From the human T2T-CHM13v2.0 reference genome, Homo sapiens: 64,000 nucleotides of DNA. Position numbers and translations under genes: made by a program. Below are positions 37,162 through 61,854 of the stretch, piece by piece. How positions within the stretch are numbered: the stretch's first letter is position 1; each line of letters begins with the position of its first letter. The notes under the pieces were generated by a model, which did not search any database, was not told the origin of the DNA, and saw only the letters and a program-made list of their open reading frames with translations. Location of the stretch: the NCBI RefSeq assembly GCF_009914755.1, contig NC_060943.1; one strand, 5' to 3'.

Positions 37162-37246
37162 ATGCACAGATCAGAGCCATTTCTGAAAATGTCGCTGCTG
37201 ATTCTGCTTTTCCTGGGATTGGCAGAAGCCTGTACTCCTCGTGAAG
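37162..37246 (+). CDS. EDDM13: EDDM13 exon 1 (signal peptide)
   Basis: [28 protein letters not shown], donor G|GTAATG, phase 1. Confidence 0.92.
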
Positions 37247-61200: not shown

Positions 61201-61854
61201 CAAACAATTATTTTGAAACAAATTTTGTAAACATAGAAAAAATTAGCTGGGCATGGTGGTGTGCACCTGTAATCCTAGCTACTCGGGAGGTTGAGGCAGG
61301 AAAATCACTTGAACCTGGGAAGCAGTGGTTGCAGTGAGCCGAGATCATGCCATTGCACTCCAGCCTGGGTGACAAGAGCAAAACTCTGTCTCAAAAAAAA
61401 AAAGTTTTTAAAGGGCGATCAGGGAACATGACATGTGAGCAAAGGCTTGAAGAAGAAGGGCAGGTGAGCCAGAGATAACTGGGGGAAAGGCATTCCAGGA
61501 AGAGAGAACAGTATATGCAAAGGCCCTGAGGCAGCTGAGTCCCTGGGATCCAGGGACACAGGGAGACTAACTTTATTCTCTTCTCTCCTCATTCGAGGCA
61601 CCTGGAAGCACTATTTAGAGTTTGGTCTCCACCCACTTCATAATTCACCTGATGGTTTCTTTTCTTTTCCTTTCTTTTCTCCTCCTCTTCCTCTTCCTCC
61701 CTCCCTCTCTCCCTCCCTTTCTTCCTTTCCTCTTCCTCTTCCTCCCTCCCTCTCTCCCTCCCTTTCTTCCTTTCCTCTTCCTCCTTCTCTTCCTGCTTCT
61801 TTTTCTCCTCCATCTCTTCATTTTTAGAAGAAACAAGTGGCTGCAAGGAGGAAG
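37162..61854 (+). CDS. EDDM13: Epididymal protein 13, 12 coding exons in the window, 3'-partial: [98 protein letters not shown]...
   Basis: Signal-peptide exon plus AG/GT-bounded microexons whose spliced translation reproduces the EDDM13 sequence as I recall it. Confidence 0.88.
38499..38810 (+). mobile_element. Alu
   Basis: Full dimer; AAAACTCTGTAGAG TSD. Confidence 0.95.
40419..40436 (+). CDS. EDDM13: EDDM13 exon 2 (18 nt, VATKEK)
   Basis: ttttgtctccag|TTGCAACTAAAGAAAAAA|gtaaga. Confidence 0.85.
40860..41163 (-). mobile_element. AluS
   Basis: Antisense Alu motifs. Confidence 0.95.
41295..42250 (+). mobile_element. L1M 3'-end fragments
   Basis: AAAAGATGCTCAACCTCATTAGCCATCAG...CATACAATGGAATATTATTCA...GGGTACAATGTACA. 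Confidence 0.85.
42430..42757 (-). mobile_element. Alu
   Basis: Antisense Alu; CACAATGTGCTATTTT TSD. Confidence 0.92.
42843..43502. mobile_element. MLT2-type (ERVL) LTR
   Basis: GTTCTCCAGAGAGACAGAACC...GTCAAGCTGACACCCCAAATCAACCATCACA. Confidence 0.75.
44878..45232. mobile_element. MST-type MaLR LTR
   Basis: AGTCTGTTTTGGGCTGCCATAACAGAATACCTGAGACTGG...CAAACCATAACA. Confidence 0.8.
45240..45677. mobile_element. Tigger2-family non-autonomous element with intact TIRs
   Basis: TTGACCCTTGAACAA (45242-45256) and TTGTTCAAGGGTCAA (45661-45675) are perfect inverted termini. Confidence 0.85.
46023..46028 (+). CDS. EDDM13: EDDM13 exon 3 (6 nt, IN)
   Basis: ctgccccttccag|TCAACT|gtaagt. Confidence 0.8.
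46821..46829 (+). CDS. EDDM13: EDDM13 exon 4 (9 nt, LLK)
   Basis: ctgccaacag|TGCTGAAAG|gtaagc. Confidence 0.82.
48528..48536 (+). CDS. EDDM13: EDDM13 exon 5 (9 nt, GII)
   Basis: ctgccatcag|GGATCATAG|gtaagt. Confidence 0.82.
   Translation, partial: GS
48838..49138 (-). mobile_element. Alu
   Basis: Antisense Alu motifs. Confidence 0.93.
49324..49350 (+). CDS. EDDM13: EDDM13 exon 6 (27 nt, GLMSRLSPD)
   Basis: tcttcttcctcag|GTCTCATGAGCAGACTGTCACCGGATG|gtaagt. Confidence 0.88.
50348..50645 (-). mobile_element. AluS
   Basis: Antisense Alu motifs. Confidence 0.93.
50708..50838 (+). other. Cryptic/alternative EDDM13 exon, in frame with exon 6 (43 aa then TGA)
   Basis: atttttttcacag|ACGGACTG...ACCGCTTGA|gtaagt. 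Confidence 0.5.
52470..53000 (+). mobile_element. L2 3'-end fragment containing EDDM13 exon 7
   Basis: CTCATCTTCCAGGTCTCAG...CTAGTCTGTGAGCTCCCTGAG...CCCAGCACACAGGAGATGCCTCATAAACATTTGTT resembles the L2 3' end. Confidence 0.75.
52708..52761 (+). CDS. EDDM13: EDDM13 exon 7 (54 nt, [18 protein letters not shown])
   Basis: ctcatcttccag|GTCTCAGA...CCGCAAG|gttagc. Confidence 0.78.
53197..53214 (+). CDS. EDDM13: EDDM13 exon 8 (18 nt, DRTEEE)
   Basis: gcctccag|ATAGGACAGAAGAAGAAA|gtaagt. Confidence 0.85.
53930..54236 (-). mobile_element. AluJ-like
   Basis: Antisense Alu; CACAAATGTTTCT repeated on both sides. Confidence 0.9.
55164..55169 (+). CDS. EDDM13: EDDM13 exon 9 (6 nt, IK)
   Basis: cttcctccag|TAAAAA|gtaagt. 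Confidence 0.8.
55948..55956 (+). pseudogene. Dead 9-nt microexon (paralogue of EDDM13 exon 4) with mutated donor
   Basis: tcaacag|CACTGAAAC|ctaag versus exon 4 ccaacag|TGCTGAAAG|gtaag, at nearly the same distance from the preceding 6-nt exon. Confidence 0.65.
56550..57320 (-). mobile_element. L1MB fragment interrupted by an Alu (~56620-56910)
   Basis: AACATGAAATTTACCATT...CATGGCTGAGCAATACTCCATTGCATGGATAGA. Confidence 0.8.
59635..59950 (+). mobile_element. Alu
   Basis: Full dimer with A-rich tail. Confidence 0.93.
60282..60290 (+). CDS. EDDM13: EDDM13 exon 10 (9 nt, KIL)
   Basis: ctggatggacatcatcag|AGATCCTAG|gtgaca (weak donor). Confidence 0.75.
   Translation, partial: RS
60659..60685 (+). 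CDS. EDDM13: EDDM13 exon 11 (27 nt, GLLSLQVLH)
   Basis: ctgtcctccttag|GCTTGCTGAGCCTCCAAGTACTGCATG|gtaagt. Confidence 0.88.
61075..61404 (+). mobile_element. Alu with expanded middle linker
   Basis: Alu motifs. Confidence 0.9.
61655..61825 (+). repeat. ~170-bp polypyrimidine (CCT/CTT) tract with internal direct repeat
   Basis: Visible; abuts the acceptor of EDDM13 exon 12. Confidence 0.9.
61828..61854 (+). CDS. EDDM13: EDDM13 exon 12 (27 nt, EETSGCKEE)
   Basis: cttcatttttag|AAGAAACAAGTGGCTGCAAGGAGGAAG|gtaagt. Confidence 0.88.

What the first reader, a model, noticed from the sequence alone, without database searches (positions are those of the whole stretch)
37162..61854. EDDM13 is a mammalian 'micro-exon gene': a secreted protein built from phase 1-1, 3n exons of 6-54 nt
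Seen: after the signal-peptide exon come exons of 18, 6, 9, 9, 27, 54, 18, 6, 9, 27 and 27 nt. All are multiples of 3 and phase 1-1, and 9 of 11 have GTAAG donors. Only ~210 coding nt are spread over ~21 kb. Known: this architecture (signal peptide plus a run of symmetric microexons) is typical of schistosome MEG genes, where exon skipping diversifies secreted proteins. Inference: EDDM13 could produce a combinatorial family of secreted epididymal peptides. Nearly every skip keeps frame; the exceptions are exon 3 joined to exon 10 (TAG) or exon 12 (TAA).
Basis: partly seen in the sequence, partly recalled or inferred. Interest (0 to 1): 0.8.

Follow-up and report, generated by a model that had tools for sequence, protein, structure and literature searches.

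The report
Mammalian secreted gene built from micro-exons
EDDM13, an epididymis-specific secreted-protein gene of placental mammals, really is encoded in large part by a string of tiny in-frame exons that arose by duplicating a five-exon cassette, but whether it mixes them to make many different peptides is still unproven.

Summary
After the signal-peptide exon come 11 AG/GT-bounded exons of 18, 6, 9, 9, 27, 54, 18, 6, 9, 27 and 27 nt. All are phase 1-1 and 9 of 11 have GTAAG donors. Only 2 of 66 possible joins make a stop codon.

The micro-exon content is already in print: a GENCODE/PhyloCSF supplement notes 'eleven coding micro-exons'. I found the following points in no paper:
- The array is an ancient tandem duplication of a five-micro-exon cassette (18-6-9-9-27 nt). 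Each cassette encodes a conserved hydrophobic/charged segment that looks helical; no fold could be predicted.
- The human gene carries a likely relic of the second cassette's 9-nt exon, with CT where the donor GT should be.
- The micro-exon acceptors have long AG-free zones and an excess of UGC/CUG motifs. Together with the strong donors, this matches the published cis-architecture of SRRM3/4-type microexons.
- The micro-exon-coded residues are the best conserved part of the protein. This is the opposite of the fast-evolving schistosome MEGs.

Database models in dog, lemur, sea lion, mouse and macaque show many in-frame exon subsets. Many other models are plainly annotation artefacts, and no transcript data could be examined.

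Verdict: a real, unusual, convergently MEG-like architecture. Splicing is probably mostly constitutive with some cassette skipping (exon 7 and the second cassette). Combinatorial diversification remains possible, at about 20%.

The parts
37162..37246 (+). Exon 1 coding part (85 nt): start codon and signal peptide; ends in phase 1
   Evidence: A hydrophobic stretch followed by small residues at -3/-1 is read as a signal peptide (inference; no predictor was run). The macaque record is named 'precursor'.
40419..40436 (+). Exon 2, 18 nt, phase 1-1; first exon of cassette 1
   Evidence: Paralogous to exon 8 together with about 70 nt of upstream intron: blastn 71% over 101 nt, E 4e-5; local score 53 against a shuffled maximum of 29.
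42579..42602 (+). Alternative 24-nt exon inside an antisense Alu; in frame in phase 1-1. In the second human isoform it replaces exons 3+4+5, which also total 24 nt.
   Evidence: sequence context and open frame; the join exon 1-2-Alu-6...15 equals database protein P0002 exactly.
46023..46028 (+). Exon 3, 6 nt, phase 1-1
   Evidence: Flanks paralogous to those of exon 9 (score 37). A UGC at about -14 is kept in both copies.
46821..46829 (+). Exon 4, 9 nt, phase 1-1 (codes x-L-K)
   Evidence: Invariant L-L-K in 20 of 20 aligned eutherian proteins. Counterpart of the relic at 55948-55956.
48528..48536 (+). Exon 5, 9 nt, phase 1-1
   Evidence: Flanks paralogous to those of exon 10 (score 31).
49324..49350 (+). 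Exon 6, 27 nt, phase 1-1; last exon of cassette 1
   Evidence: Same length as exon 11 and a similar peptide. The flanks are not detectably alike (score 18).
52708..52761 (+). Exon 7, 54 nt, phase 1-1; variable Pro-rich linker, often absent from models
   Evidence: Lowest conservation of all exons, 0.48. Absent in 21 of the 65 models in which both neighbouring anchors were found, including the macaque 'precursor' record.
53197..53214 (+). Exon 8, 18 nt, phase 1-1; first exon of cassette 2
55164..55169 (+). Exon 9, 6 nt, phase 1-1
55948..55956 (+). Probable relic of the second cassette's 9-nt exon ('9b', the counterpart of exon 4). The acceptor context is intact, but CT stands where the donor GT should be. 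Not annotated.
   Evidence: The core is 16/20 identical to exon 4 with its splice sites. It lies 779 nt after exon 9 (exon 3 to exon 4: 793 nt). Read through, it would code x-L-K and keep the frame. The exon is present in 18 ortholog models. Statistics on its own are modest: 11 of 63,956 window positions match exon 4 as well.
60282..60290 (+). Exon 10, 9 nt, phase 1-1; weakest donor (GTGAC, 5/9 match to consensus)
60659..60685 (+). Exon 11, 27 nt, phase 1-1; last exon of cassette 2
   Evidence: conservation 0.90
61828..61854 (+). Exon 12, 27 nt, phase 1-1; acidic, Cys-containing segment. It is preceded by a pyrimidine-only tract of about 130 nt (61679-61810) and is the last exon inside the window. 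Exons 13-15 lie beyond the window end, in window-continued numbering: 66291-66418 (128 nt, phase 1 to 0; locus L009 2291-2418), 69096-69133 (38 nt; L009 5096-5133), and 73845-74175 (coding part 73845-73869 including the stop, with AATAAA at 74149).
   Evidence: Exon 12. Exons 13-15: fetched, inferred, confirmed against database proteins.

Best explanation
EDDM13 (mouse Epp13) is a genuine, single-copy gene for a small secreted protein of the caput epididymis, found across placental mammals. The region between its signal peptide and its conserved Cys-rich C-terminal module is encoded by an array of phase 1-1 micro-exons.

Origin of the array: before the eutherian radiation, a five-micro-exon cassette (18-6-9-9-27 nt, 23 codons) was duplicated in tandem. 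Each copy encodes one conserved segment with alternating hydrophobic and charged residues, read here as an amphipathic helix (inferred from the residue pattern; no fold was predicted). The two copies are separated by the variable 54-nt exon 7. Phase 1-1 symmetry follows from the phase-1 intron after the signal peptide, and it is what allowed in-frame cassette duplication.

The human copy: the second cassette has probably lost its first 9-nt exon through a donor change (CT in place of GT), leaving 18-6-9-27.

How the tiny exons are recognised (inferred): near-consensus U1 donors, long AG-free zones with distal pyrimidine tracts and branch-point-like motifs, and UGC/CUG-rich sequence just upstream.

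Splicing outcome (inferred): in the epididymis the exons are mostly all included, because the residues they encode are the most conserved in the protein. Whole-exon, in-frame skipping does occur, mainly of exon 7 and of the second cassette. In hominoids an Alu-derived 24-nt exon can stand in for exons 3-5.

The resemblance to schistosome micro-exon genes is convergent architecture, not common descent.
For: Exon anatomy and frames.

Duplication:
- The three highest of 55 pairwise exon-plus-flank scores are the collinear pairs 2-8 (53), 3-9 (37) and 5-10 (31). The shuffled null has mean 16.5 and maximum 29.
- blastn of exon 2 against exon 8 gives E 4e-5.
- The peptide repeat scores 31 against a shuffled mean of 18.6, with a fraction of 0.01 at or above it. 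Its 3-residue gap falls exactly on exon 4.
- 18 of the 66 models in which the exon 8 and exon 11 anchors were both found carry the full 18-6-9-9-27 second cassette.

Age: both cassettes are present in a tenrec model, and the second also in an anteater model.

Relic exon.

Conservation: mean pairwise column identity is 0.73-1.00 for the micro-exons, 0.48 for exon 7 and 0.64 for exon 13.

Splice signals:
- 9 of 11 donors are GTAAG.
- The median AG-free zone is 68 nt, against 16 nt at 1236 pseudo-acceptors.
- There are 18 TGC in 11 x 40 nt upstream, against 7.2 expected, p about 5e-4. CTG, GCT and TGC are the top three of 64 trinucleotides.

Expression and protein:
- CAGE supports epididymis expression, and the conservation entry reads 'mammals' (PMC6886504 supplement passages).
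- Caput-specific in mouse (PMC6688925 and PMC10266198 passages).
- The protein is listed in a pig seminal-vesicle proteome table (PMC12842868).

Single copy: only a self-match for the exon-13 peptide in the whole assembly.

Skipping:
- The macaque 'precursor' record lacks exon 7.
- The 8 dog models that parse cleanly keep exons 2-5 and vary in 6-10; the 2 others seen also contain other sequence.
- The Alu isoform equals P0002.
Against: - No transcript or read data could be examined, so 'mostly constitutive' is an inference from conservation and splice-site strength.
- The 20 sequences used for conservation were chosen by me because they have the canonical layout.
- The controls for the UGC count and the AG-free zones are pseudo-acceptors in this window, not real human exons. 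Three of the exon pairs are paralogues, although 8 non-redundant exons still give 14 TGC against 5.3 expected.
- The exon 6/11 flanks show no similarity.
- The relic's match is statistically modest on its own, and no other primate's DNA could be aligned.
- The helical-moment calculation did not single out the full-length form as optimal.
- No structure could be predicted. The Atlas's own model of the rat protein is poor, with pLDDT 0.55.
- Mouse knockout males are fertile (PMC6688925), so the function remains unknown.
Confidence: 0.7

Rival explanations
1. One reading: EDDM13 works like a schistosome micro-exon gene. Regulated, combinatorial skipping of the symmetric micro-exons produces a family of related secreted epididymal peptides whose diversity is itself the function.
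For: - All 11 internal exons are phase 1-1, and 2038 of 2048 subsets stay open.
- 41 of 123 database models parse as clean exon subsets, with 21 distinct patterns.
- Dog models are numbered up to X18. The 8 cleanly parsed dog models keep the 6- and 9-nt exons 3-5 and vary in exons 6-10. That is not what failure to align tiny exons would give.
- Forms with and without the 9-nt exon occur within one species in sea lion, mouse and horse.
- Exon 7 is absent in 21 of 65 models.
- Human exon 10 has a weak donor.
Against: - The micro-exon-coded residues are the most conserved in the protein. MEG products evolve fast (PMC4350168 title and abstract).
- 9 of 11 donors are near consensus.
- Nearly all the models are computed, not sequenced. 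At least 14 carry donor read-through artefacts, and 7 contain only exons of 27 nt or more (patterns 11-12 and 6-7-11-12).
- The gene table given with the finding counts two human RefSeq transcripts.
- No junction-peptide proteomics is available.
Confidence: 0.2
2. Tissue-gated micro-exon programme: inclusion of the EDDM13 micro-exons depends on an SRRM3/SRRM4-type (eMIC) activity, or an equivalent factor, in caput principal cells. Elsewhere the exons are skipped or replaced, giving the non-coding or aberrant isoforms seen in testis and cell lines. This concerns the mechanism of recognition, so it can hold together with either reading above.
For: - The cis-architecture matches that published for SRRM3/4-dependent microexons. 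A UGC lies within 25 nt of the AG in 8 of 11 exons, against 36% of pseudo-acceptors. Among the published dependent microexons, 74-79% have one between branch point and AG (10.1101/2024.09.17.613571 passages).
- The donors are strong.
- The AG-free zones are long, with a median of 68 nt. Neural microexons have extended branch-point distances and distal pyrimidine tracts (10.64898/2026.01.16.699960 passages).
- The blocks conserved between the paralogous flanks of exons 2 and 8 are a branch-point-like motif plus a distal CT tract at about -70 to -45.
- A non-coding EDDM13 isoform is reported from testicular tissue (10.1101/2025.05.06.652571 passages).
Against: - Nothing found links SRRM3 to the epididymis: the search gave 3 papers, none relevant by title or abstract. 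SRRM4 was not searched with epididymis.
- The enriched motif is really CUG/GCU/UGC, which other factors could also read.
- The controls are pseudo-acceptors only.
- Branch points were not predicted with a trained tool.
Confidence: 0.25
3. Annotation artefact: the 6-9 nt 'exons' are forced alignments of a few transcript bases, and the real gene has fewer, larger exons.
For: - Many automatic models of this gene are visibly wrong.
- Under a loose filter, chance AG...GT segments are as common as in control DNA.
Against: - Paralogous intron flanks surround exons 2/8, 3/9 and 5/10.
- Gaps in ortholog proteins coincide with these exon borders, and the junction codons change as predicted.
- The coded residues are invariant or nearly so across 20 eutherians.
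- Under the strict filter, 6 of 7 candidates are the annotated exons against 1.95 expected.
- GENCODE curators recorded the micro-exons and a PhyloCSF signal on 4 of them.
Confidence: 0.02

Closest known systems
Schistosome micro-exon genes (MEGs)
   Same: Both have a conventional exon carrying a signal peptide, followed by a run of very small symmetric exons whose lengths are multiples of three (6 bp upward), separated by introns of 0.1-5 kb. Any exon can therefore be dropped in frame. Both encode secreted products of a glandular epithelium. MEG features come from passages of PMC4350168 and PMC10526429.
   Different: - No sequence relationship: the profile search found only EDDM13-like proteins.
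- MEGs are described as restricted to platyhelminths, form many families, and evolve fast.
- EDDM13 is single-copy in human, and its micro-exon-coded residues are its most conserved part.
- Only 43% of the coding sequence lies in the symmetric exons.
- Alternative use is not experimentally shown.
SRRM3/SRRM4-dependent neural and endocrine microexons
   Same: Exons of 3-27 nt with strong donors, UGC motifs between branch point and AG, and extended branch-point-to-AG regions with distal pyrimidine tracts (passages). The EDDM13 micro-exons show all three cis features. A 6-nt exon is also known in TAF1 (abstract of PMC6948980 in the listing).
   Different: Those microexons are typically single alternative exons inside large intracellular proteins of neurons and islet cells. 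Here 10 (ancestrally 11) lie in a row, encode the core of a small secreted protein, and are expressed in epididymis. Dependence on SRRM3/4 is untested.
Alpha-s1 and alpha-s2 casein genes (CSN1S1, CSN1S2)
   Same: Mammalian secreted-protein genes with an 'extremely fragmented' architecture of many small coding exons built by intragenic exon duplication. They show frequent in-frame exon skipping, for example of 24- and 39-nt exons (PMC12470106 passages).
   Different: Casein exons are larger (24 nt and up in the passages read), and the family is unrelated. That casein/SCPP introns are phase 0 is recalled, not checked here; EDDM13 uses phase 1 throughout.
Phase-1 introns after signal peptides and symmetric-exon modularity
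   Same: An excess of phase-1 introns near signal-peptide cleavage sites and the role of symmetric exons in modular evolution are established (abstracts of PMC1626468 and PMC3632108 in the listing). EDDM13's first intron lies 4 codons after the predicted cleavage site and sets phase 1 for the whole array.
   Different: The general rule concerns domain-sized exons. It does not predict exons of 2-9 codons.
Fast skeletal troponin T 5' mini-exons; tropoelastin cassette exons (recalled, no call)
   Same: Recalled examples of vertebrate genes in which a run of short in-frame exons is combinatorially or facultatively spliced.
   Different: They are intracellular (troponin T) or have much larger exons (tropoelastin). 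These statements rest on memory only.

Membership tests
Schistosome-type micro-exon gene (MEG), taken as an architectural class | Run of very small symmetric exons whose lengths are multiples of three (6-81 bp) | tested here: met
   11 of 11 internal exons in the window are 3n, 6-54 nt and phase 1-1. The feature definition comes from PMC10526429 and PMC4350168 passages.
Schistosome-type micro-exon gene (MEG), taken as an architectural class | Most of the coding region is encoded by the micro-exons | tested here: not met
   210 of 486 coding nt (43%) lie in the 11 symmetric exons, and 156 nt (32%) in exons under 30 nt. By number, 11 of 15 exons.
Schistosome-type micro-exon gene (MEG), taken as an architectural class | N-terminal signal peptide on a conventional flanking exon; secreted product | tested here: inconclusive
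   A hydrophobic N-terminus followed by small residues is conserved in the alignment. One record is named 'precursor'. The pig protein is listed in a seminal extracellular-vesicle proteome. No signal-peptide predictor was available.
Schistosome-type micro-exon gene (MEG), taken as an architectural class | Alternative splicing of the micro-exons yields a pool of protein variants | tested here: inconclusive
   There are 21 clean exon-usage patterns among 41 parseable database models, and one human Alu-exon isoform. The models are mostly computed, and 14 show artefacts. No reads were examined.
Schistosome MEG families (common descent) | Sequence similarity to a MEG family; platyhelminth distribution | tested here: not met
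   The profile of 20 EDDM13 proteins, run against 1.84 billion representatives, gave 57 hits. All of those whose sequences I read were EDDM13-like, and the named ones are eutherian. No MEG sequence was fetched for a direct comparison.
Schistosome MEG families (common descent) | Accelerated evolution of the products | tested here: not met
   The micro-exon-coded columns have 0.73-1.00 mean pairwise identity across 20 eutherians, higher than the rest of the protein. dN/dS was not computed.
SRRM3/4 (eMIC)-dependent microexons | Length 3-27 nt | tested here: met
   10 of the 11 internal exons in the window are 6-27 nt.
SRRM3/4 (eMIC)-dependent microexons | UGC motif close upstream of the 3' splice site | tested here: met
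   8 of 11 exons have one within 25 nt and 10 of 11 within 40 nt. At pseudo-acceptors the figures are 36% and 50% (n = 2487). Resampling p is about 5e-4. The controls are not real exons.
SRRM3/4 (eMIC)-dependent microexons | Strong 5' splice site and long branch-point-to-AG distance | tested here: inconclusive
   9 of 11 donors are GTAAG. AG-free zones have a median of 68 nt, and 9 of 11 are at least 51 nt. Branch points were only guessed from YTNAY motifs.
SRRM3/4 (eMIC)-dependent microexons | Inclusion depends on SRRM3 or SRRM4 | not testable with these tools
   This needs expression data and perturbation. The literature search SRRM3 + epididym found nothing relevant.
Any curated protein family or solved fold | Significant match to a Pfam model or a PDB chain | tested here: not met
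   Pfam: 0 families for 2 of 3 orthologs and one sub-threshold DUF5477 hit (E 0.17) for the third; 0 for the exon-13 peptide. PDB: only two designed helical-repeat proteins, E about 8e-5. Atlas: no usable hit.

The most novel reading that the evidence does not exclude
EDDM13 is a true mammalian counterpart of the micro-exon-gene strategy. In the caput epididymis, regulated skipping of individual 2-, 3- and 9-codon exons shortens or re-registers the conserved helix-like segments of a secreted, vesicle-associated protein, mainly in the second cassette and together with exon 7. One locus would then yield a graded family of peptides. Lineage-specific gain and loss of micro-exons (the hominoid Alu exon, the dead human 9-nt exon) would retune that repertoire. 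The cis-code that makes this possible would be the same UGC / distal-branch-point architecture used by the neural SRRM3/4 microexon programme, deployed in a non-neural epithelium.
Probability: 0.2. Interest if true: 0.75.

Novelty: new variant of a known kind. Interest (0 to 1): 0.5.

Why it matters
Runs of exons this small are very rare in mammals, and they break standard gene finders and read aligners.

Annotation: at least 14 of 123 public models of this one gene carry read-through artefacts, and many others drop the tiny exons. The locus is a compact stress test for microexon-aware annotation.

Splicing mechanism:
- It is a natural experiment on how the spliceosome defines 6-9 nt exons separated by kilobase introns.
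- It contains two paralogous copies of the same five-exon cassette, which allows matched comparisons of what has been kept in the flanks.
- If the UGC / distal-branch-point signature proves functional, the microexon machinery studied in neurons and islets would have a role in a reproductive epithelium.

Diversity and evolution:
- If combinatorial use is real, it would be the first mammalian secreted-protein analogue of the parasite MEG system.
- The likely human loss of a conserved 9-nt exon and the hominoid Alu replacement exon are small, datable changes in a reproductive protein.

Limits: the gene's physiological importance is unclear, since knockout mice are fertile, and the basic micro-exon observation is already recorded by GENCODE curators.

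Tried and rejected
No fold search was possible, and the helical reading rests on the residue pattern only.
- Exons 13-15 from sequence alone: 9721 formal solutions. Resolved only with the published SNP codon, then confirmed by database proteins.
- Search for the missing 9-nt exon by aligning exon 4 with 80-nt flanks to intron 9: best score 25, equal to the null. None of 22 AG-9nt-GT segments and none of 9 strict coding-pattern matches qualified. A degenerate splice-plus-coding pattern then found the relic.
- Third cassette or further relics: nhmmer with five paired-exon profiles over the window plus 12 kb found nothing beyond the known copies. The only extra signal was a weak reciprocal hit between the two 9-nt exons 4 and 5 (E 0.044 and 0.27).
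- Helical hydrophobic moment of all subsets of exons 3-5 and 9-10: values 0.02-0.44, with no clear optimum for the full form, so it is uninformative.
- Family and fold: Pfam, PDB sequences and the ESM Atlas gave nothing. Paralogue search in the whole assembly found only the gene itself.
- Literature: no paper found on microexons in the epididymis (5 papers, none on this) or on SRRM3 in the epididymis (3, none relevant). Of 86 papers holding 'micro-exon gene' and 'mammal', the 20 listed concern parasites or rice.
- Not readable: Supplemental Fig. S3A of PMC6886504 (a PDF) and the supplements of the bioRxiv isoform paper. Both may show human EDDM13 isoform structures.

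
Full report
OBSERVATION

I read all twelve coordinate pairs in the window. Exon 1 contributes 85 coding nt. The next eleven exons are 18, 6, 9, 9, 27, 54, 18, 6, 9, 27 and 27 nt long. Each is preceded by AG and followed by GT, and each is entered and left in phase 1. Nine of the eleven donors read GTAAG; exon 7 has GTTAG and exon 10 has GTGAC. The eleven exons total 210 nt spread over 40419-61854. 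The introns between them, taken from the coordinates, are 368 to 5586 nt long.

Of the 66 ordered exon pairs, only 3-10 (TAG) and 3-12 (TAA) create a stop codon. 2038 of 2048 subsets of exons 2-12 stay open.

ARE THESE MORE THAN CHANCE AG...GT SEGMENTS?

I applied a strict filter: at least 7 of 9 matches to the donor consensus, at least 70% pyrimidines in the 20 nt before the AG, a length of 3n between 6 and 54 nt, and an open frame in phase 1. The 24.6 kb holds 7 such segments and 6 of them are annotated exons. The density in the rest of the window and on the opposite strand predicts 1.95. Under a loose filter the region holds 29 segments against 23.6 expected, and exon 10 fails even that filter. 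Sequence alone therefore does not define the exon set.

Three independent lines show that the exons are real:
- Paralogous flanks surround several of them (see the cassette section).
- Ortholog proteins have gaps that fall exactly on these borders.
- An in-silico join reproduces a database protein letter for letter.

WHAT IS ALREADY IN PRINT

The GENCODE/PhyloCSF paper added this coding model. [quoted passage not shown] Its Fig. S3A is in a PDF I could not read.

Other papers:
- Mouse Epp13 is caput-enriched. Males carrying a 28.6-kb deletion of the coding region are fertile (PMC6688925 passages; PMC10266198 passages).
- The protein appears in a table of pig seminal extracellular-vesicle proteins (PMC12842868).
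- A non-coding isoform is reported from testicular tissue (10.1101/2025.05.06.652571 passages; supplements closed).

I found no paper that compares the gene with schistosome MEGs, describes its internal duplication, or treats microexons in the epididymis. The searches were EDDM13 (11 papers), Epp13 (9), 'micro-exon gene' + mammal (86 papers; the 20 listed are on parasites or rice) and microexon + epididymis (5, none on this).

THE REST OF THE GENE

The assembly is held, so I fetched the 12 kb after the window. Sequence alone allowed 9721 ways to complete a 161-codon frame. A published missense SNP (ACG to ATG) pointed to a 128-nt exon at 66291-66418 in window-continued numbering. The solution 66291-66418, 69096-69133 and 73845-73869 was then confirmed by the C-terminus of database proteins and by an exact identity test. 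The run of phase 1-1 exons therefore ends at exon 12, because exon 13 goes from phase 1 to phase 0.

The exon-13 peptide has no Pfam match, no PDB match and no second copy in the whole assembly.

THE ARRAY IS A DUPLICATED FIVE-EXON CASSETTE

I aligned every internal exon with 80 nt of flank against every other. The three best of the 55 pairs are the collinear pairs 2-8 (score 53), 3-9 (37) and 5-10 (31). The shuffled null has mean 16.5, sd 2.5 and maximum 29. blastn finds 71% identity over 101 nt between exon 2 and exon 8 with their flanks, E 4e-5. Exons 6 and 11 share length (27 nt) and peptide character, but their flanks are not detectably alike.

At the peptide level the two halves align with a score of 31 against a shuffled mean of 18.6. 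A fraction of 0.01 of shuffles reach that score. The single 3-residue gap falls exactly on exon 4.

Orthologs settle the missing piece. Two protein searches returned 123 named models, and 66 of them hold both the exon 8 and exon 11 anchors. Among these 66:
- 18 carry a nine-residue linker that contains an extra x-L-K. They come from macaque, rat, mouse, bats, carnivores, ruminants, a camelid, a tree shrew and others.
- 16 carry the six-residue human-type linker.

The ancestral second cassette was therefore 18-6-9-9-27, identical in layout to the first. A tenrec model (Afrotheria) contains both cassettes, and an anteater model (Xenarthra) contains the second. The duplication thus predates the eutherian radiation. 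None of the 120 listed names is a marsupial or monotreme. The exhaustive profile search gave only 57 representatives, and all of those whose sequences I read were EDDM13-like.

A DEAD MICRO-EXON IN HUMAN

A degenerate pattern (acceptor, x-L-K coding, donor) finds a site at 55948-55956 in intron 9. Its features are:
- Its core with both splice sites is 16/20 identical to exon 4.
- It has a pyrimidine-rich, UGC-containing acceptor region.
- It lies 779 nt after exon 9; exon 4 lies 793 nt after exon 3.
- If read, it would code x-L-K, and its last base would pair with exon 10 to give the same junction residue as in macaque.
- It is followed by CT instead of GT.

The match is not overwhelming on its own: 11 of 63,956 window positions match exon 4 equally well in register. 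I rate it at about 80% as the inactivated human copy. It explains why human and ape proteins lack these three residues. No other primate's DNA was available for confirmation.

HOW SUCH SMALL EXONS MAY BE RECOGNISED

The first signal is the donors described above. The second is the AG-free zone before the acceptors, which has a median of 68 nt; 9 of 11 are at least 51 nt. At 1236 pyrimidine-rich pseudo-acceptors in the window the median is 16 nt. Exon 12 sits behind a pure CT tract of about 130 nt.

The stretches conserved between the paralogous flanks of exons 2 and 8 lie at about -70 to -45. They consist of branch-point-like TAAT motifs followed by a CT tract.

The 40 nt upstream of the eleven exons hold 18 TGC against 7.2 expected, with resampling p about 5e-4. 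After dropping one member of each paralogous pair the count is 14 against 5.3. Among all 64 trinucleotides, CTG, GCT and TGC rank first to third.

Strong donors, UGC between branch point and AG, and extended branch-point regions with distal pyrimidine tracts are the published signature of SRRM3/4-dependent microexons (10.1101/2024.09.17.613571; 10.64898/2026.01.16.699960; passages read in both). This is a lead, not a demonstration. My controls are pseudo-acceptors rather than real exons, branch points were not properly predicted, and nothing I found links SRRM3 to the epididymis.

DOES THE GENE MAKE A COMBINATORIAL FAMILY?

Evidence for:
- I parsed the 123 models as ordered concatenations of exon peptides. 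41 parse cleanly into 21 different patterns, 39 contain other sequence, and in 43 my anchors were not found.
- Dog models are numbered up to X18. I saw 10 of them. The 8 that parse cleanly keep exons 2-5, including the 6- and 9-nt exons, and differ in exons 6, 7, 8, 9, the extra 9-nt exon and 10. This asymmetry is not what a failure to align tiny exons would produce.
- Forms with and without the extra 9-nt exon occur within sea lion, mouse and horse.
- Exon 7 is missing in 21 of 65 models, including the macaque record named 'precursor'.
- The second human isoform replaces exons 3+4+5 (24 nt) by a 24-nt exon inside an antisense Alu.

Evidence against:
- Across 20 eutherian sequences the micro-exon-coded columns are the best conserved, at 0.73-1.00 mean pairwise identity; L-L-K is invariant. 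Exon 7 scores 0.48 and exon 13 scores 0.64. I selected those 20 because they have the canonical layout.
- MEG products, by contrast, show accelerated evolution (title and abstract of PMC4350168).
- At least 14 models carry the S-K-N or S-K-Y signature of reading through the exon 2 or exon 8 donor. In those models, micro-exon bases were pushed into the intron. Seven more models consist only of exons of 27 nt or more.
- Much of the database variety is therefore annotation noise, and I could inspect no reads.

My estimate is that some whole-exon skipping is real, at about 85%, mainly of exon 7 and the second cassette. Functional combinatorial diversification is possible but unproven, at about 20%.

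WHAT THE PROTEIN IS

No curated family or solved fold matches. Pfam gives nothing above threshold. PDB sequences give only two designed helical-repeat proteins, at E about 8e-5. The Atlas has no usable neighbour, and its own model of the rat protein is poor, with pLDDT 0.55.

Read from the alignment, the protein has these parts in order:
1. a signal peptide;
2. two conserved segments, one per cassette, with hydrophobic residues spaced three to four apart between charged ones, read here as amphipathic helices;
3. a variable proline-rich linker between them (exon 7);
4. an acidic, cysteine-containing segment;
5. a basic linker;
6. a highly conserved hydrophobic and cysteine-rich C-terminus.

A helical-moment scan did not discriminate between isoforms.

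COMPARISON AND VERDICT

The architecture is MEG-like, but the gene is not a MEG. There is no homology, only 43% of the coding sequence lies in the symmetric exons, and those parts are conserved rather than diversifying. The nearest mammalian analogues are the fragmented, exon-duplicated, exon-skipping alpha-s caseins (PMC12470106 passages). On the splicing side the nearest analogue is the SRRM3/4 microexon class.

Phase 1 throughout follows the known excess of phase-1 introns at signal-peptide cleavage sites (abstract of PMC1626468).

The finding is real and unusual, but its core is already annotated and noted in print. What I found in no paper is the cassette duplication, the probable dead human micro-exon, the splice-signal signature, and the conservation argument that tempers the combinatorial reading.

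Noticed in passing
window 55948-55956: Probable inactivated 9-nt micro-exon, the counterpart of exon 4 in the second cassette. The acceptor region is intact but CT replaces the donor GT. The exon is present in macaque, rodent, bat, carnivore and ruminant proteins and absent from human and ape proteins.
   Followed up: partly
window 42579-42602 (within the masked repeat 42419-42751): The alternative RefSeq exon is an exonised antisense Alu of 24 nt. It is open in phase 1-1 and, in isoform X1, replaces exons 3+4+5, which also sum to 24 nt, so both isoforms are 161 aa. A gibbon model joins exon 1 directly to the same Alu exon.
   Followed up: yes
window 48062-48076: This is the only unannotated segment in the gene that passes the strict micro-exon filter (15 nt, open in phase 1, donor 7/9, 70% pyrimidine acceptor). 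No ortholog model seen has five extra residues at this place, so it is probably a decoy.
   Followed up: partly
window 61679-61810: A pure CT low-complexity tract of about 130 nt (TRF periods 4, 12, 39, 45) ends 18 nt before exon 12. Similar tracts match many places in the genome. It gives exon 12 an AG-free zone of 205 nt.
   Followed up: partly
window 46365-46446 and 48594-48675: An 82-nt intronic segment is repeated at 92.7% identity in introns 3 and 5. The spacing does not fit the exon 4/5 spacing. It was not identified and may be a small interspersed repeat.
   Followed up: no
window 46798-46849 and 48498-48548: Profiles built from exons 5/10 and from exon 4 plus the relic each pick the other 9-nt exon of cassette 1 as their best non-self hit (E 0.044 and 0.27). 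The two 9-nt exons may themselves be an older duplication.
   Followed up: partly
L009 2177-3090 (window-continued about 66177-67090): The frame of exon 13 stays open for 304 codons, through a purine-rich low-complexity stretch after the donor. Several ab initio database proteins (for example P0003, P0028, P0031) read straight through this donor.
   Followed up: no
ortholog models P0010, P0018, P0024, P0025, P0027, P0029, P0036, P0039, P0040, P0043, P0045, P0059, P0073, P0122: These 14 of 123 public EDDM13 models carry S-K-N or S-K-Y right after exon 2 or exon 8. These residues are the translation of the GTAAGAAC / GTAAGTAC donors, so micro-exon bases were pushed into the intron by the annotation pipelines, often with the right total length.
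   Followed up: yes
L009 2347-2349 (window-continued 66347-66349): This ACG codon fits the missense variant rs150684613 (Thr to Met) listed for EDDM13 in Supplemental Data S5 of PMC6886504. It lies at a CpG in exon 13.
   Followed up: partly
table (P0035, P0037, P0085, P0115): Apodemus sylvaticus has records named both 'epididymal protein 13' and 'epididymal protein 13-like', on two contigs. This may be a lineage-specific gene duplication.
   Followed up: no
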